Assembly (NCBI GenBank): GCA_030141605.1
Contig: JAQGDQ010000586.1
Span: 62,001 to 126,000, forward strand
Reading direction: 5' to 3'
Source: Tubiluchus corallicola
Taxonomy: Eukaryota; Animalia; Priapulida
DNA: 64,000 bases
Below are positions 11,192 to 58,595 of this stretch, one piece after another; position 1 is the first letter of the stretch, and every line of letters starts with the position of its first letter. Below the pieces are notes generated by a model. That model was not told where the DNA came from and ran no database searches. It worked only from the letters and a program-made list of their open reading frames with translations. A program made the position numbers and the translations under genes.

Positions 11192-12520
11192 CTATAACGG
11201 CATTGAGCAAATTTTATTGTGGACAGGAATGGACAGAAACCCCGCAAGGCACACCCCCAACGTGTCTGCTACGCTGGCCACCCCGAGACTAAACTCTCTC
11301 ACTTCTTCTTTCGTCTCTTCCGAAATCGTGAAAAAGGAATTCACGTAAGCCGCACCTCCCCATAAACCTTCAAAGAAAATAAGACAGCAAACCAACCAGA
11401 AGGGCATGAAGAGAAAAATGGCGTCGAACGTGAAAAGTACGGCGTTCAAAACTTGAAGGATGGGAAAAATCCAAATCTTTTTTGTGTGAAAACAGTTCAC
11501 GGATGAACGAGAGATGAAAACTCCGAGTTGATAATCGGCTTGGTACCAGCGATATTGCTCGCTTATTGTCAACCAATTGACGTTCCTGAAGTTAACCAAT
11601 TCAAACAGCGCCTGGTTGATGTAATACTCGGCGACGTAAACCAGAAACAATGGAATCATGTACTTCAGTAAAGGCACTATTAATTTCAAACGCTGCAACG
11701 TCGATAACTTCTTAACGTAATCACTATAACCGGAGTTATGATCCGGTTTTATACCATCATCGCTATCCTCAAGCACCTGGTTTGTTTCTTCTGTTATCGG
11801 CGACGACTGATGAGTTTCTTCGTTCCTCAACAGAGGTGATTCGTCTCCTCGATGTTCTGGACTCTCAGTCGGCGTCAATATCACATAATAGCTGGTAGTC
11901 ATTATCACAGGCACAGTGAGCATGACTAGAATTGTGTGTTGTGGCGACAACCCGACGCCGGTCAATCCCGCGTACGACAAAGCGCCAAACAGTCCAGCGC
12001 CTCCAGTACCGGACGACCAAGTAGATATGGTATTCCTATGGTACAAAGACGTAAGACTGAGAAAGGTGATTTCTCCAAGTCCAGAGCTGATGCTAGCGCA
12101 AACGACGCCGAACAAACTCATCCAAACGTCGGTTGAAAAAGCGACAATGAGAAAACTGGCCGCAGCGAAAACTATAGCGACCGGAATTCGAATTCTGTAA
12201 TGTATTCTGTGTATATAAAACGCGGCAGTGAGCTTTATGAACAAAGTTGGCAAGACGTCTGCAAGAAGGATTGCTCCTGTTGACATCTGATTACATATTC
12301 TCGTGTCAGGTGGCGCTGTTGTAGCATTCAGCAAGTTCTCTGTACTATTCCCATGTTCTTGCACACTTAGAATGTCGTAAGCAGCACTGAGCATTATCAC
12401 ATACCCGAAATTGTTGCACAAACCGAGAAACCAGAAGCCAATTAAATCCCGACGATATTTGATCTTGTGGACCCGATTAGCTCGAATGACCTCATCAGTG
12501 GTAGAACCCACTGTGAGTAC
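11192..12520 (-). CDS. CLN3: Battenin (CLN3/Btn1 lysosomal MFS-like protein), main coding exon
   Basis: 439-aa ORF with family motifs FWFLGLCNNFGYVIMLSAAYDIL, LLADVLPTL, WSSGTGGAG, EYYINQ, QYRWYQ..YQLGVFISRSS and EGLWGGAAYVN. Acceptor TTTGTTCTGCAG ends just before 12520. The likely upstream exon ends in ATG|GTATGA at 12778-12780. Confidence 0.96.
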   Translation of the reverse strand, partial: VLTVGSTTDEVIRANRVHKIKYRRDLIGFWFLGLCNNFGYVIMLSAAYDILSVQEHGNSTENLLNATTAPPDTRICNQMSTGAILLADVLPTLFIKLTAAFYIHRIHYRIRIPVAIVFAAASFLIVAFSTDVWMSLFGVVCASISSGLGEITFLSLTSLYHRNTISTWSSGTGGAGLFGALSYAGLTGVGLSPQHTILVMLTVPVIMTTSYYVILTPTESPEHRGDESPLLRNEETHQSSPITEETNQVLEDSDDGIKPDHNSGYSDYVKKLSTLQRLKLIVPLLKYMIPLFLVYVAEYYINQALFELVNFRNVNWLTISEQYRWYQADYQLGVFISRSSVNCFHTKKIWIFPILQVLNAVLFTFDAIFLFMPFWLVCCLIFFEGLWGGAAYVNSFFTISEETKEEVREFSLGVASVADTLGVCLAGFLSIPVHNKICSMPL

Positions 12521-13898
12521 CTGCAGAACAAACTTTTATACATTTATTTTTTCATAATACTGCACACTATAATATTATATTATTCATAAATACTTTATAA
12601 CGTTATAACGTACAATTACGTTAAAACGATCTAAATCGAGTTTTACTCTTTGGTTTCACTATCTTATTGTTCTGACAGCATAATAATGAAACACGCTGAA
12701 GTGTATTATTACAATGACTAAAAATATTAAGCCTTTTGAAATCTCATTAGTAAGTATTAATAAATTCATGGTCATACCATGCTTGTTGTCAACATGTCTG
12801 CATAATAATATTGTGCGTCTCTGCTGAATGCAGTCTTAGTCTTCTAAATGCAATTATGGCACCATGTACAAAAGCAACTCGCTAACTACTACAGTACTAT
12901 CATGGAAATGCAGCATCGACAAAATTAAACAAAGTACAAGCCACTAACGTCTATACGTAAACAAAAACGAAATTAACGTCAAATAAACTAAATTCACGGA
13001 CAGATGGCAGCACCTTCATGAACTACTGTACATTTCCACATATTAACAATACAGGATGCACATGGTCAGTTCTGTGTACCCTTTAGTGTTGTTTTAGCCC
13101 GTTTTCAAACTAGTGATGGATTTTTATAGGTGTATTTAGATTTAAAGCGTTCCGTATTCACTATTGTCTATTATAGTTATAGAATTTTGTTGTGGTTTTC
13201 TAAAAACTTTATTTTGATCAACCGGAAATCATCGATTTTTTTATAATTACGTCACTTGTTTGGCGCGTGTGCAAACAGCTGAGCGTGTGTAGGATCGAGC
13301 GCAAAACGAAGAACGTTTTGAAATGAAAATGTGATTGAAGTTTTTGTCGGCTGAATTTTTATAATCATGTTTCACTTCCGATGATTCCAGTCGTACTGTG
13401 ATTGAGACAACGTGGAGTATTCTGTGTGTATGGCCAAGTGTTAATTTCAGGCGTTTTTCAATTCACTCGAGAGTCCGACCGACTCGCCTAGGAAAAGCTT
13501 GGAAATTTAATTCAACCTGCTCATCTCAGGGTTCGTAATCTGAATTTTAAATAGCTAGTCACTTTAGATCTTTCACAACTTGTAGATAGACGATAACTGT
13601 AAAACATTATCATTTTTATTTGATTGTTGTAAAAACTTGTATTGATGTATATTCGTTAATGCGAATTTGTAGCCTATTTTAGGCTTATGTACGAATTATT
13701 AACCATTTCGCTAAAGGATTTATATTAATAATAATAATAATAATAATTTATATTTTTACAAAAAAACAACAGCATGCAGACAATTATTAAGATTTTAAAA
13801 AATAACTGTAAACAGCAATTTTTTTGAATAAATGAAATTTATTCGGTGCTGACCATATCTAAACTCACTCACTCACTCTCTCGCTCTCGCCCTCCCTG

Positions 13899-21992: not shown

Positions 21993-22520
21993 CACACGTG
22001 TTCATTTCACCATCTATTGTTCCATGATCATGTTGTTGTTTTTCAGTTGACCTTCAACAATGGGAAGATACAGCGGTAAGACATGTCGTCTGCTGTCCAT
22101 GCTTTCTCTCCCCATCAGCTTCGAATCCACACGTGTTCATTCCATAATTTATTGTTCCATGATCATATTGTTGTTTTTCAGCTGACCTTCAACAATGGGA
22201 AGATACAGCAGGAAGACATGTCGTCTGCTGTCCATGCTTTCCCTCACCTTCACCTTCGACACCACACGTGTTCATTCCATAATTTATTGTTCCATGATCA
22301 TATTGTTGTTTTTCAGCTGACCTTCAACAATGGGAAGATACAGCGGGAAGACATGTCGTCTGCTGTCCATGCTTTCTCTCCCCATCAGCTTCGAATCCAC
22401 ACGTGTTCATTCCATCATTTATTGGTCTATGATCATGTTGTTGTTGTTTTTCAGCTTACTTCAACAATGGGAAGATACAGCGGGAAGACGTGTCGTTTGC
22501 TATCCATGCTTTCTCTCACC
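21993..22520 (+). repeat. 135-bp tandem repeat (4 copies) of the ZnT intron end, acceptor and start codon
   Basis: Acceptors end at 22046, 22181, 22316, 22454. ATGGGAAGATACAGC starts at 22060, 22195, 22330, 22467. Confidence 0.95.
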
Positions 22521-22643
22521 ACCACATTCTTCCTGGTGGAGATTACGGTCGGGTACATCACCAATTCCATGGCCCTGGTGGCGGATTCGTTTCACATGTT
22601 GTCTGATGTGGTAGCTCTCCTAGTGGGCCTGACGTCTGTTAGG
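22467..22643 (+). CDS. SLC30A1: ZnT1/ZnT10-family CDF zinc exporter, coding exon 1
   Basis: MGRYSGKTCRLLSMLSLTTTFFLVEITVGYITNSMALVADSFHMLSDVVALLVGLTSVR|GTAAAG; includes the TM2 HxxxD motif. Confidence 0.93.
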
Positions 22644-26656: not shown

Positions 26657-26851
26657 CACTGGCTCACCTTCCCAGTGTGCACCACTGACTCACCCTTCCC
26701 AGTGTGCACCACTGACTCACCTTCCCAGTGTGCACCATTGACTCACCTACCCAATGTGCACCATTGACTCATATTCCCAGTGTGCACCACTGACTCACCT
26801 TCCCAATGTGCACCACTGACTCACCTTCCCACTGTGCGCCACTGACTCACC
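26657..26851. repeat. 26-bp minisatellite (~7.5 copies) CACTGACTCACCTTCCCAGTGTGCAC
   Basis: Direct reading; a single related copy sits at ~18621-18645. Confidence 0.92.
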
Positions 26852-35329: not shown

Positions 35330-35665
35330 AACAGGATCTACAGGCCCAATCAAACGAAAAATCAAACCACATTTGAATTTACCTGGATCTGCAGGCCCAA
35401 TCAAACCACATTTGAATTTACCTGGATCTGCAGGCCCAATCAAACAAAAAATCAAACCACATTTGAATTTACCTGGATCTGCAGGCCCAATCAAACGAAA
35501 AATCAAACCACATTTGAATTTACCTGGATCTGCAGGCCCAATCAAACCACATTTGAATTTACCTGGATCTGCAGGCCCAATCAAACAAAAAATCAAACCA
35601 CATTTGAATTTACCTGGATCTGCAGGCCCAATCAAACAAAAAAATCAAACCACATTTGAATTTAG
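35330..35665. repeat. 51/39-bp minisatellite with higher-order (51+39+51)x2 structure
   Basis: GGATCT anchors at 35334, 35385, 35424, 35475, 35526, 35565, 35616. Confidence 0.92.
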
Positions 35666-36896: not shown

Positions 36897-37037
36897 TACC
36901 TTTTTTGCTCACTTATTAATTGTTACCTGTTTTGCTCACTTATTAATTCTTACCTGTTTTGCTCACTTATTAATTGTTACCTGTTTTGCTCACTTATTAA
37001 TTGTTACCTGTTTTGTTCACTTATTAATTGTTACCTG
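36897..37037. repeat. 27-bp minisatellite x5 directly behind the exon-6 donor
   Basis: Unit TTTTGCTCACTTATTAATTGTTACCTG. Confidence 0.92.
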
Positions 37038-50144: not shown

Positions 50145-50728
50145 AAGCTATTTCCCATTGCCTGTTCACCAATCCATTTACTAAAGTGGGTCCTGTACTG
50201 CTTAACTTAGTAGCCAAGCATACCAAGACAGCTCAAGCTATTTCCCCTTGCCTAAAATCTAAGAGGAGATACAGTGCTGGTCACCAATCCATTTACTAAA
50301 CTGGGTCCTGTACTGCTTAACTTAGTAACCAAGCATACCAAGACAGCTCAAGCTATTTCCCATTGCCTGTTCACCAATCCATTTACTAAACTGGGTCCTG
50401 TGCAGCTTAACTTAGTAACCAAGCACACCAAGACAGCTCAAGCTATTTCCCATTGCCTGTTCACCAATCCATTTACTAAACTGGGTCCTGTACTGCTTAA
50501 CTTAGTAACCAAGCACACCAAGACAGCTCAAGCTATTTCCCATTGCCTGTTCACCAATCCATTTACTAAAGTGGGTCCTGTGCAGCTTAACTTAGTAACC
50601 AAGAACACCAAGACAGCTCAAGCTATTTCCCCTTGCCTGTTCACCAATCCATTTACTAAAGTGGGTCCTGTACTGCTTAACTTAGTAACCAAGCACACCA
50701 TGGCCCCTCAAGCTATTTCCCCTTGCCC
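50145..50728. repeat. 90-bp minisatellite, ~6 copies, starting ~15 nt into the last LIN9 intron
   Basis: TCACCAATCCATTTACTAAA at 50281, 50371, 50461, 50551, 50641, plus an offset copy at ~50166. Confidence 0.93.
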
Positions 50729-50838: not shown

Positions 50839-51839
50839 CTACAATAACAAAAAATACAAAATACTAAAACTTTCATTTCCTAAAACTTTATACCGGTATG
50901 TCCTAATTTTGTCGTATTTCCAACAAATATTTTAAAATGTTAAAATTATTAAAGATATAATTTTAAAATTAGCTCAAGAAAAATACTTTTTATAAATTAA
51001 GCTGAATAAAATGTTCCTTGTGAAATTTTATATCACACGCTGTCTTACTGCTTACAGGGCTTGTCTGGGCAGTAAAGCTGTACAAAACTTGTAAACTTTT
51101 TACCATTTGGCACAATATATTTTAAATTATTATGCATTTTCTTTTCCGATTGTATAAGCTGTGAGGATTTTTCCTGAAATTCAAACACCAGGTGGCAGTA
51201 GTATACGGCAGGTGTGAGCGTAGACACTAAAGTGGCAAGGCTTAATGTGTGAACTGAGACGCTCATTTTTGTTACTGTGTTTGCCAAATATTTGTATTTT
51301 TTCTTTGTCTTGTCTTAGTGCTACACTTATTTCAGCTAACTATATGCTGCTATGATGTGAGTAATTAAGAAAATTACACCACCCTTTTTTGAACTTCCAA
51401 ATTTGCATTCACACGTCAGAAAACGTGCTATAATACTTTAGCTTACAATTTTACTATTTAATCACCTATGTATTTTGCATTTGAGTATTTTTTGCTATCA
51501 GAATATTTTGTTTCGACTTATTAGGCTCAAACTTTATGTCTGTTTTTCTCAATTTAACCCCTATAGGGTCACCGGTGGGGTAAAAAATTACCCCCAGACC
51601 GGTTTTTTGCATTTTAGCCTTTTAACATACGCATCCCAGTAAACCTTTTCTATGACTTTTATAAATATGTTTTGTGCACAAAATACTTTCAGTTATTTAT
51701 TTTAGGCGCATTGTCTCACCACGAAATAAAAGTGAAAATGCAATATGTCGATTTTTTAAAATTGTCGAAAAGGTAAATCTTACCTGTATCTGTAGCATCA
51801 GCGATATAAGATGACTGATCAAGCCAAGGTAAATCTTAC

Positions 51840-52013
51840 CTGTATCTGCAGCATCAGTGATGTAAGATGACTGATCAAACCTCGGACGTTCCTGTTTTTC
51901 ACAGTAAATTCGTGGTTAATCTGAGCAACTATGCCGTCAGCTTCACCGCTGCAATGCTCCTTCACAGCAATGGGATGTCTGACCGGTTCCTCAAGGCCGT
52001 ACTCCGGTGCTAG
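51840..52013 (-). CDS. LIN9: LIN9 exon
   Basis: TTACAG|LAPEYGLEEPVRHPIAVKEHC...GLISHLTSLMLQIQ|GTAAGA; 58 codons. Confidence 0.9.
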
Positions 52014-52083
52014 CTGTAAGAATTAAATCAGATCACCATTATAATCTAAATGAATAAACAACCCGAGTTAATAGGTGCTAGAA

Positions 52084-52350
52084 GGCCCAGTGGTCGAGTG
52101 GTACAGCGCTCGGCTGCCAACCATCCAGGCTCTGGGTTCAAATCTCACTCATATCAGAGTTTTCCAGCCATGTTCCACTGAAGCAGGACTTTATGGTCAC
52201 TTTCCTTGGAGTACTCAGGCTCGATTAACTAACTAAAGTACTCAGGCTTGATTAACTATCTAATCATGAATTGTGGGTAGAAAAGCAGCCAATCAAAGAG
52301 CTAGCCACTTGTTGTTGTGCACAGGGTTCGTAAATAGATGGCAGCACCAT
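52084..52350 (+). mobile_element. tRNA-derived SINE-like element
   Basis: A box TGGTCGAGTGG and B box GGTTCAAATC; no acceptor-stem pairing. Confidence 0.55.
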
Positions 52351-52664
52351 CTATTTCCCAATTTCCCATTGTTCTAAAATACTAATCTAATCCACTTGGT
52401 TCAGAATCGACCTTGTATACAAACATTTATGTTTCGCACGGAATAAGCAAATATTTTTATTACGTTCAGGTACACAAAGCTCTCAAATCACATCTAGTGT
52501 CATCAAGCCAAAATTTTGCCCTTTTATTAATGTTCATAAGCATTGCTGAAGAACACAAACGGAAGAGCATTGCTGTAAGACATTATTGCGCACTTAACAT
52601 CAAATGCAGACAGAATTGGTTGCATTGTTATACATAGTAATGCAATGTTAAGCAAATACACATA

Positions 52665-52981
52665 CAGTCAACCCTCGTTAAACCAGACTAATTTCCCGGT
52701 TTAGCTGATTGTCCGATTTATCAGATATACCTATAAATGGTGTATATTATGCAGGAATAATCACCTTAATAAGGCCTATATACATTGCACTATATACTAT
52801 ACTGTATATTACTTTAAAATAGTTAACCTGTGAGGATAAAGAAATTATTGTACAGTTGGTAGGCCGTGTTGTGTTCAGCGCTCGGGCTCGGACGGAAATC
52901 GGTCAGTTTCCATTACCACGGATGACGTCCGTCTTATCTGATATCCAGGCTAACAGGGTCCGGTTTAACGAGGGTTGACTG
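52665..52981. mobile_element. pogo/Tigger-like MITE
   Basis: TA|CAGTCAACCCTCGTTAAACC...GGTTTAACGAGGGTTGACTG|TA. Confidence 0.88.
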
Positions 52982-53199
52982 TACAATTTTAACACGCCAT
53001 GGAATTTGTCAAATCAAACCTCGTTATAATGCCAACCTTGCTTAATGTCCATATTTTTGGAAAAATAAAATATCTATCTTTGCATAGACATGAACATATT
53101 AATGCACCTCGTTACGACGCCAAACTTTCTTAATGCCTGCCAAATATTTTCAGTCCCAAAGTAGGCAGTATAAGGTCTTTTAACTGTATTTATAAGTTT

Positions 53200-53659
53200 C
53201 AGGGATGAAAATTTTCTGCGGATACGCGGAATTCCGAGTTTTTGGAAGACCAATAGTGCCATTTTTGTAAATCGCGTGAATTCGTTGAGAAAATTTTTAC
53301 GGACCCAGTACATTATTTCACAAGCTGATCGCTAGTTGGCAGGCCGTCACTTTGTTTACATCACGTACATCAGTGTAACCACATGTATATCTCTATGTAT
53401 AAAAATATAGAATCAATTGTGCGGAGTTATTTGAGTCAATTGCAGACAGCTTTTATATACTTTTGCATAGGAGCGGCACGTACTTAGGCGTTTTTGAGAC
53501 AATTAGGTATCATGTATCCTTGATAGTTGAGTATTTTAAATTATGCATGAAACAAGGTAACTGATATTTTAAGTCAACTTAGAGGCTCTCTATGGTCTAC
53601 TCGGCCCCAAACCCCCGGCCTATTTCAGAGTATTTTGCAATTTGTCATTCTCATCCCTG
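53200..53659. mobile_element. hAT-type MITE family F
   Basis: CAGGGATGA...TCATCCCTG; near-identical to 39513-40015. Confidence 0.82.
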
Positions 53660-53729
53660 AAGTTTAAGAGTATGGTTGGAACGATGCAACTTCTGTGTGA
53701 TGTACAAACAAGCATTACTGGCAGACAGC

Positions 53730-55531
53730 TAACAGATTGTTGTAGAAAGGGAACATACGGTTTTACAGTACTGCTGACAGATTGTTGTAGAAAGACTACA
53801 TACGGTTTTACAGTACTGCTGACAGATTGTTGTAGAAAGACTACATACGGTTTTACACTACTGCTGACAGATTGTTGTAGAAAGACTACATACGGTTTTA
53901 CAGTACTGCTGACAGATTGTTGTAGAAAGAGTACATACGGTTTTACAGTACTGCTGACAGATTGTTGTAGAAAGAGTACATACGGTTTTACAGTACTGCT
54001 GACAGATTGTTGTAGAAAGAGTACATACGGTTTTACAGTACTGCTGACAGATTGTTGTAGAAAGAGTACATACGGTTTTACAGTACTGCTGACAGATTGT
54101 TGTAGAAAGAGTACATACGGTTTTACAGTACTGCTGACATATTGTTGTAGAAAGACTACATACGGTTTTACAGTACTGCTGATATATTGTTGTAGAAAGA
54201 GAACATACGGTTTTACAGTACTGCTGACAGATTGTTGTAGAAAGAGTACATACGGTTTTACAGTACTGCTGACAGATTGTTGTAGAAAGAGTACATACGG
54301 TTTTACAGTACTGCTGACAGATTGTTGTAGAAAGAGTACATACGGTTTTACAGTACTGCTGACAGATTGTTGTAGAAAGAGTACATACGGTTTTACAGTA
54401 CTGCTGACAGATTGTTGTAGAAAGAGTACATACGGTTTTACAGTACTGCTGACAGATTGTTGTAGAAAGAGTACATACGGTTTTACAGTACTGCTGACAG
54501 ATTGTTGTAGAAAGAGTACATACGGTTTTACAGTACTGCTGACAGATTGTTGTAGAAAGAGTACATACGGTTTTACAGTACTGCTGACAGATTGTTGTAG
54601 AAAGAGTACATACGGTTTTACAGTACTGCTGACAGATTGTTGTAGAAAGAGTACATACGGTTTTACAGTACTGCTGACAGATTGTTGTAGAAAGAGTACA
54701 TACGGTTTTACAGTACTGCTGACAGATTGTTGTAGAAAGAGTACATACGGTTTTACAGTACTGCTGACAGATTGTTGTAGAAAGAGTACATACGGTTTTA
54801 CAGTACTGCTGACAGATTGTTGTAGAAAGAGTACATACGGTTTTACAGTACTGCTGACAGATTGTTGTAGAAAGAGTACATACGGTTTTACAGTACTGCT
54901 GACAGATTGTTGTAGAAAGAGTACATACGGTTTTACAGTACTGCTGACAGATTGTTGTAGAAAGAGTACATACGGTTTTACAGTACTGCTGACAGATTGT
55001 TGTAGAAAGAGTACATACGGTTTTACAGTACTGCTGACAGATTGTTGTAGAAAGAGTACATACGGTTTTACAGTACTGCTGACAGATTGTTGTAGAAAGA
55101 GTACATACGGTTTTACAGTACTGCTGACAGATTGTTGTAGAAAGAGTACATACGGTTTTACAGTACTGCTGACATATTGTTGTAGAAAGAGTACATACGG
55201 TTTTACAGTACTGCTGACATATTGTTGTAGAAAGAGTACATACGGTTTTACAGTACTGCTGACAGATTGTTGTAGAAAGAGTACATACGGTTTTACAGTA
55301 CTGCTGACAGATTGTTGTAGAAAGAGTACATACGGTTTTACAGTACTGCTGACAGATTGTTGTAGAAAGAGTACATACGGTTTTACAGTACTGCTGACAG
55401 ATTGTTGTAGAAAGAGTACATACGGTTTTACAGTACTGCTGACAGATTGTTGTAGAAAGAGTACATACGGTTTTACAGTACTGCTGACAGATTGTTGTAG
55501 AAAGACTACATACGGTTTTACAGTACTGCTG
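53730..55531 (-). repeat. 45-bp minisatellite x40 = LIN9 exon end (18 nt) + GTATGT donor + intron start (27 nt)
   Basis: Minus-strand unit CAGCAGTACTGTAAAACC|GTATGTACTCTTTCTACAACAATCTGT; donors from 55513 to 53758 in exact 45-nt register. Confidence 0.97.
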
Positions 55532-55639
55532 CGCACCCAGCAGATGCTCGTTCAAACTCTTATTCAAAGCGTCCAGCTCCAGCACGACGTGCGCAAATCG
55601 TTTCTGGAAGTTCGACTCAATCGGCTTCTGTTGCGATTT
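55514..55639 (-). CDS. LIN9: LIN9 exon (coiled-coil region)
   Basis: TTCTAG|KSQQKPIESNFQKRFAHVVLELDALNKSLNEHLLGAQQYCKT|GTATGT; compare LIN9 FQRRYATIVLELEQLNKDLN..VQQYC. Confidence 0.93.
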
Positions 55640-58514: not shown

Positions 58515-58595
58515 CATTTTCTCTGCCTCGCCGTTCATTTCCTTCAGTGTCGCGACTAGAGACCTTTTCTGATTTAAAATTTTCGTCAACTTTGT
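58515..58595 (-). CDS. LIN9: LIN9 exon
   Basis: TTTCAG|TKLTKILNQKRSLVATLKEMNGEAEKM|GTAAGT; compare TRLSKILMIKKEHIKKLREMNTEAEKL. Confidence 0.92.

What the first reader, a model, noticed from the sequence alone, without database searches (positions are those of the whole stretch)
53730..55639. LIN9 splice donor amplified 40-fold in frame: a possible variable-length Cys-rich insertion cassette
Seen: the 45-bp unit is the last 18 nt of a LIN9 exon (QQYCKT) plus the first 27 nt of its intron. There are therefore 40 identical ACC|GTATGT donors at 45-nt spacing (55513 to 53758). All are phase 0, like the downstream exon LAPEYG.... The frame stays open for 36 extra units, mostly VCTLSTTICQQYCKT (3 Cys per 15 aa); a single TAG at 53858-53860 closes only the last 3 donors. 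Known: this part of LIN9 is the coiled-coil region that works with LIN52 and B-MYB in MuvB, and competing identical donors can be used alternatively. Inference: donor choice could give a ladder of LIN9 isoforms with 0-36 inserts (up to 540 aa) plus stop-containing NMD isoforms. Copy number could then tune a cell-cycle regulator, or the cell must strictly select the first of 40 identical donors.
Basis: partly seen in the sequence, partly recalled or inferred. Interest (0 to 1): 0.88.

Follow-up and report, generated by a model that had tools for sequence, protein, structure and literature searches.

The report
Splice-donor minisatellite in a LIN9 intron
A 45-base piece covering the end of an exon of the cell-cycle gene LIN9 and the start of its intron is repeated 40 times head to tail in an animal genome; this is a further example of a repeat type known from several human genes, and the cell likely keeps splicing at the first copy rather than making a ladder of longer proteins.

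Summary
Observation confirmed: 40 units of 45 bp (18 exon + 27 intron bases), 40 identical phase-0 donors at 55513..53758, open in frame up to a TAG at 53858-53860. Donor 1 is the orthologous LIN9 junction: 25 of 28 LIN9 hits end at the same phase-0 GT, and human LIN9 residues 415/416 are contiguous across it. The arrangement is known: human F7, 6-16, CBS, LMNB2 and PDGF carry such arrays and use only the first one to three donors (PMC1557585). This scan also found it before on other DNA. The open frame is weak evidence: 3 of 6 frames of the unit are open, about 1 in 5 such duplications would be in frame and stop-free, and variants show no coding constraint. Two other junction-spanning duplications in the same window break the frame. 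DNA contigs hold the unit at high depth, so it is probably not an artefact. No RNA contig reached this donor, so donor use is untested. Verdict: new member of a known kind, likely neutral; the isoform ladder is not excluded but unsupported.

The parts
55514..55639 (-). LIN9 coding exon, 126 nt, phase 0/0; coiled-coil (Myb/LIN52-binding) region; its last 18 nt are the head of unit 1
   Evidence: acceptor supported by a spliced joint in run X2
55508..55516 (-). Donor 1, the orthologous splice donor (G of GT at 55513); weak, 5 of 9 matches to the U1 consensus
   Evidence: 25 of 28 LIN9 hits show Val (GT) right after the same codon
53728..55531 (-). 45-bp minisatellite, 40.1 copies, 31 of 40 identical; 39 extra donor copies 55468..53758; variants mostly near the ends (units 1, 7-8, 30-31, 37-40)
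53858..53860 (-). TAG in unit 38 (C>G variant) closing donors 38-40
53720..53731 (-). Intron sequence just after the last unit; resembles the unit's first bases (4 of 6, 8 of 11 with one gap), likely the microhomology that seeded the first duplication
   Evidence: boundaries printed; origin inferred
52014..55513 (-). LIN9 intron, 3500 nt from donor 1, of which about 1785 nt are the array
51840..52013 (-). Next LIN9 exon, 174 nt, phase 0/0 (human 416-474)
51770..51878 (-). 56-bp duplication of that exon's end plus donor: second donor copy at 51783, out of frame with stops; an internal control
   Evidence: present in an X1 contig 51780-51930 with 0 differences

Best explanation
This is a 40-copy intronic minisatellite whose first unit straddles the conserved LIN9 exon-intron junction, so the splice donor is copied 39 times into the intron, and the spliceosome likely uses the first copy almost exclusively, removing the array and giving normal LIN9. 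Shown: the anatomy, the orthology of donor 1, the near-identity of the central units. Inferred: the array began as one 45-bp slippage between short similar sequences at the exon end and 27 bases into the intron, then expanded recently by unequal exchange or slippage; donor 1 wins because it alone gives a 126-nt exon and lies most 5' (exon definition and 5'-first selection as in F7); donors 2-3 may leak at a low level and add 15 or 30 residues; the in-frame unit length is a 1-in-5 accident, not an adaptation.
For: Donor 1 sits at the family's intron position (25 of 28 LIN9 hits; human 415/416; Pfam 148/150). Spliced full-length hits P0022 and P0023 run straight on without an insert. Known arrays of this type use donor 1 only (F7, LMNB2, PDGF) or donors 1-3 (6-16 with 25 extra sites, CBS with 15-20 units), and in F7 frame-preserving distal sites were still not used (PMC1557585). 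Distal donors need exons of 171-1881 nt, while the 13 internal exons annotated here are 44-246 nt. Variants 2 silent / 3 missense / 1 stop against 30/97/8 possible. The window holds 30 merged arrays of period 15 or more; 2 others span junctions against 0.63 expected (P 0.13), and both break the frame. Boundary similarity at the array ends.
Against: No RNA was seen across this donor, so first-donor use rests on analogy with mammalian cases. The donor is weak (5 of 9) and all 40 copies share 18 upstream bases, so some leakage is plausible. Six variant sites give little power to detect selection. One earlier scan note (e1-9353532, unchecked) reports a similar array in which RNA used the last donor.
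Confidence: 0.8

Rival explanations
1. Functional ladder: many donors are used and yield LIN9 isoforms with 0-36 Cys-rich 15-residue inserts after the coiled-coil helix, plus NMD isoforms from donors 38-40, so copy number would tune MuvB.
For: 36 extra donors are in frame and stop-free; the site lies at position 84/85 of the 119-residue LIN9 piece in 6C48, just before a Pro-containing stretch that may be a linker; donor core unchanged in 40 of 40 units.
Against: Core invariance is expected by chance (P 0.24); open frame expected about 1 in 5; no LIN9 hit with such an insert (0 of 28); in five human precedents at most three donors are used; exons over 300 nt from donor 5 on.
Confidence: 0.05
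2. Fixed shift: one distal donor (up to 37) has become the main one, so much of the array is a constitutive coding repeat in LIN9.
Against: The last three donors are closed by a stop; units carry missense and nonsense variants freely; up to 540 Cys-rich residues would fall inside the piece that binds LIN52/B-MYB (PMC9424243 passages); two other frames of the unit are just as open.
Confidence: 0.04
3. Micro-exon or stepwise splicing: each unit also has two AGs preceded by a modest pyrimidine stretch, so splicing from donor 1 into a later unit could include in-frame 15- or 12-nt micro-exons.
For: Internal AG context 11 of 17 pyrimidines, micro-exons of 5 or 4 residues in frame.
Against: T content 7 and 4 of 17 is below all 16 annotated acceptors (8-13); no RNA evidence.
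Confidence: 0.04
4. Assembly artefact: the array is inflated or false.
For: 21 consecutive identical units (9-29) cannot be resolved by short reads; no contig spans the array.
Against: In DNA-like run X1 the bin holding the unit has summed contig depth 29 against 0-2.4 in neighbouring exon bins; units carry distinct variants near both ends. The tool warns that this depth is no copy number, and X1 may be the source of the window.
Confidence: 0.07

Closest known systems
Human F7 intron 7 minisatellite (37 bp, 5-9 copies); Borensztajn et al. 2006, PMC1557585 (read: abstract, Introduction, Discussion)
   Same: First unit spans the exon-intron boundary; identical donor copies follow in the intron; the authentic donor is the most 5'.
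   Different: Here 40 copies, 18 exon bases per unit rather than 4, unit length a multiple of 3 with 36 stop-free extra donors; donor use not measured here.
Human interferon-inducible 6-16 intron 2 (25 extra donors; two nearest also used) and CBS intron 13 (15-20 units; two extra donors used), as summarised in the Introduction of PMC1557585; original papers not read
   Same: Many tandem donor copies; the likely pattern of slight leakage to the nearest copies.
   Different: Other genes and unit lengths; here the host is a MuvB core subunit in a non-human animal.
LMNB2 (100 bp x 10-15) and PDGF intron 4 (81 bp x 16-18) minisatellites, as summarised in PMC1557585
   Same: Junction-spanning arrays; PDGF unit length is also a multiple of 3, and only the authentic donor is used.
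   Different: Fewer, longer units.
LIN9 (MuvB core; Pfam PF19438; PDB 6C48, 7R1D)
   Same: Both flanking exons match and are contiguous in the family.
   Different: No family member examined carries the repeat peptide.

Membership tests
Exon-intron boundary-spanning minisatellite (F7 IVS7 type) | Head-to-tail array of a 10-100 bp unit | tested here: met
   45 bp x 40.1, 98% matches
Exon-intron boundary-spanning minisatellite (F7 IVS7 type) | First unit contains the authentic exon-intron junction | tested here: met
   18 + 27 nt; donor 1 at the family's intron position
Exon-intron boundary-spanning minisatellite (F7 IVS7 type) | Donor sequence reiterated unchanged in the intron | tested here: met
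   40 of 40 units keep the 9-base core
Exon-intron boundary-spanning minisatellite (F7 IVS7 type) | Splicing confined to the first one to three donors | tested here: inconclusive
   The one RNA-like run stops 25 nt into the exon and has nothing on the next exon
Exon-intron boundary-spanning minisatellite (F7 IVS7 type) | Copy number varies between alleles | not testable with these tools
Coding VNTR / variable-length exon cassette | Repeat is present in mature mRNA and protein | not testable with these tools
   No RNA cover at the junction; no proteomics
Coding VNTR / variable-length exon cassette | Coding constraint on the unit or conservation of the insert in homologs | tested here: inconclusive
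   2 silent, 3 missense, 1 nonsense of 6 variant sites, close to the neutral mix but few; 0 of 28 LIN9 hits with an insert, none of them a close relative
LIN9 | LIN9_C domain and collinear exons matching LIN9 | tested here: met
   Pfam above cut-off for both exons; 8 collinear minus-strand exons 62987-49443 by tblastn and inspection

The most novel reading that the evidence does not exclude
Several of the 36 in-frame donors are really used, so LIN9 in this animal comes as a ladder of isoforms with Cys-rich 15-residue spacers between its LIN52/B-MYB-binding helix and the nucleosome-binding C-terminal domain, and allele-to-allele copy number sets the mix: a splice-donor VNTR acting as a length dial on a core cell-cycle complex.
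Probability: 0.06. Interest if true: 0.75.

Novelty: new member of a known kind. Interest (0 to 1): 0.22.

Why it matters
On the best reading it is a harmless oddity of a minisatellite-rich genome. It has some use as a natural test: 36 identical, in-frame, stop-free donors remove NMD as a filter, so junction counts would read donor choice directly and test outside mammals the 5'-first selection shown for F7. It is also a trap for gene prediction and read alignment. Only if distal donors are used would it bear on MuvB regulation.

Tried and rejected
No whole genome is held, so no genome-wide count. Run search: no RNA holder listed; X1 is DNA-like, X2 an RNA guess added by species label. X2 gave one 201-nt contig (depth 33, 7 differences in 79 nt) that joins the exon at 58516-58595 to the acceptor at 55639 but ends 25 nt into the exon; it had no cover on 52013-51840 at 88% likeness: no information on donor choice. 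Two word-based protein searches for longer relatives of the downstream exon and of exon plus two units found nothing significant (3 and 9 candidates): weak negatives. Pfam on the 593-aa read-through gave only LIN9_C above cut-off; FANCI_S2 and RdDM_RDM1 were below cut-off with no passing stretch. Two of the 30 HMMER hits (P0020, P0021) are unrelated repeat proteins and were dropped before the 25-of-28 count. Local RNA folding did not single out donor 1 (unpaired 0.50, 0.62, 0.27, 0.66 for donors 1, 2, 11, 40). Enrichment of junction-spanning arrays in the window is not significant once the focal array is left out (2 observed, 0.63 expected, P 0.13); counting arrays that start near a donor gives P 0.015-0.12 depending on a distance chosen after looking, and a TA run was dropped from that count. 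No structure prediction was run: a single-sequence fold of the repeat would not decide whether it is translated. Paper searches: (LIN9, isoform, alternative splicing, coiled-coil, B-MYB) returned 0 papers; searches listed nothing on a LIN9 junction repeat (listings only). No look-alike among earlier findings by sequence or by LIN9.

Full report
Observation. The array is as described. TRF gives 53728-55531, period 45, 40.1 copies, 98% matches, no indels. On the minus strand there are 40 donors with the same 9-base core, G of GT at 55513 down to 53758, all 39 spacings 45 nt; each unit is the last 18 bases of the exon and the first 27 of the intron; 31 of 40 units are identical and units 9-29 are an unbroken identical run. 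The exon 55639-55514 is 126 nt, phase 0. Read-through stays open to a TAG at 53860-53858 in unit 38, so donors 2-37 are in frame and donors 38-40 are closed.

Gene and junction. The exon matches LIN9 (6C48_A 43-82, E 1.8e-7; 7R1D_C 374-413) and Pfam LIN9_C 108-148; the exon at 52013-51840 matches LIN9_C 150-209 and 7R1D_C 416-474. The 42-residue exon therefore ends at human residue 415 and the next begins at 416, with no room for an insert in the family. A HMMER search of 1.84 billion representatives gave 30 hits; 2 are unrelated repeat proteins; of the 28 LIN9 hits, 25 show Val straight after the codon equivalent to this exon's last one, as read-through into a phase-0 GT gives, and 3 go on otherwise, two of them (P0022, P0023) into the next exon's sequence. 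Donor 1 is thus the orthologous junction. Eight LIN9 exons lie collinearly at 62987-49443. From passages read in bioRxiv 10.1101/788265 and PMC9424243, this region forms the LIN9-LIN52 coiled coil that binds B-MYB and is followed by a four-helix C-terminal domain that docks on the nucleosome; the junction falls at position 84/85 of the 119-residue piece in 6C48. The organism is an animal; I did not determine the phylum.

Is the array real, and is it spliced? The run search listed two runs, neither on record as RNA. X1 behaves as low-depth DNA of the same species: contigs of 151-413 aligned bases with 0-1 differences on unique parts. In X1 the bin holding the repeat unit (55425-55537) has summed depth 29, against 0 in the next two bins and 1.0-2.4 over the downstream exon. 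This fits a multi-copy unit, but the tool warns that such depth is no copy number, and X1 may be the window's own source. X2, an RNA guess about 9% divergent, has one contig that joins the upstream exon to the acceptor at 55639 and whose loose end matches the exon before that at 29 of 30 bases, so LIN9 is spliced in a relative; it stops 25 nt into the exon and does not reach the donor, and X2 has no cover on the next exon. Donor use is therefore untested, and the exact copy number is unconfirmed.

How much does the open frame mean? Little. Three of the unit's six frames are stop-free, and the list of ORFs shows 593-, 643- and 700-codon frames over the array. A 27-base intron head is stop-free 61% of the time in this window, so about 0.20 of junction duplications would be in frame and open. 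The six variant sites are 2 silent, 3 missense and 1 nonsense against 30/97/8 possible changes: the neutral mix, on small numbers. None falls in the 9-base donor core, with chance 0.24. The window is rich in minisatellites (30 merged arrays of period 15 or more). Two others span a junction: a 56-bp duplication of the very next LIN9 donor, whose second copy (51783) is out of frame and runs into stops, and a 135-bp x 3.9 array of the acceptor and start codon of a zinc transporter gene, whose three upstream ATG copies are out of frame with the real one. Junction duplication here does not need to keep the frame. Two of 28 arrays at 29 sites is not above random placement (0.63 expected, P 0.13); adding arrays that begin close to a donor gives P 0.039, 0.015, 0.033 and 0.12 for 10, 25, 50 and 100 nt, a post-hoc hint only.

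Mechanism. Shown: unit structure, orthology of donor 1, a homogeneous centre with variants towards the ends. Inferred: the bases after the last unit resemble the unit's first bases, as expected if one slippage between short similar sequences made the first duplication; repeated expansion followed, recent enough that 21 units in a row are identical. The donor is weak (5 of 9 matches to the U1 consensus, recalled; the 14 annotated donors score 5-8), so it depends on exon context. Donor 1 gives a 126-nt exon; donors 2-4 give 171-261 nt; later ones 306-1881 nt, beyond the 44-246 nt of the 13 internal exons annotated here. I expect donor 1 to dominate, with possible low use of donors 2-3 adding 15 or 30 residues (0.80). 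Rivals: a used ladder (0.05), a fixed distal donor (0.04), in-frame micro-exons from the weak internal AGs (0.04), an inflated assembly (0.07).

Comparison with what is known. Borensztajn et al. 2006 (PMC1557585; abstract, Introduction and Discussion read) describe this class: F7 intron 7 (37 bp, 5-9 copies, first donor only), 6-16 (25 extra sites, the two nearest also used), CBS intron 13 (15-20 units, two extra used), LMNB2 and PDGF (first only). With 50 constructs they found the downstream F7 copies functional but unused while the first is intact, including copies that would keep the frame. I did not read the original 6-16, CBS, LMNB2 or PDGF papers, nor any supplements. The structural membership features are met; the splicing pattern is inconclusive here and allelic variation not testable. 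Earlier notes of this scan list 13 findings of the same sort in at least 10 other genomes, with up to about 300 copies (AI notes, not checked by me); I had found the F7 paper before that look-up. What differs here is the combination of 40 copies, an in-frame unit, 36 stop-free donors and a MuvB core subunit as host.

Verdict. Real feature, new member of a known kind, likely neutral. Interest 0.22: the in-frame design makes it a clean natural test of donor choice without NMD, but nothing seen here supports a regulatory cassette. The ladder reading is not excluded (0.06) and would deserve about 0.75 if shown.

Noticed in passing
window 51770-51878 (-): 56-bp duplication of the next LIN9 exon's end and donor; second donor at 51783 is out of frame; present in an X1 DNA contig.
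   Followed up: yes
window 50162-50727: 90/115-bp array beginning 16 nt after the following LIN9 donor (50743): three consecutive LIN9 donors have a tandem repeat on or beside them.
   Followed up: partly
window 21993-22521 (+): 135-bp x 3.9 array copying the acceptor and start codon of an SLC30A1-like zinc transporter; upstream ATG copies (22060, 22195, 22330) are out of frame with the real one (22467) and would act as upstream ORFs if an earlier acceptor were used.
   Followed up: partly
window 36897-37037 (+): 27-bp x 5.2 array starting at base +6 of a zinc transporter intron (donor 36892).
   Followed up: partly
window 11192-12535 (-): Intronless CLN3 (battenin) reading frame, 447 codons, Pfam E 3e-140, among intron-rich genes; perhaps a retrocopy.
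   Followed up: no
window 35334-35664 and 26657-26851: Arrays inside zinc transporter introns whose units contain splice-signal-like motifs on the opposite strand; no matching exon found.
   Followed up: no
protein P0008: In another, unnamed organism a 19-residue (57-bp) tandem repeat abuts the acceptor of the same LIN9 exon.
   Followed up: no
window 53728-55531: Each unit contains an 8-base palindrome that pairs between neighbouring units in RNA folds; it might favour slippage.
   Followed up: no
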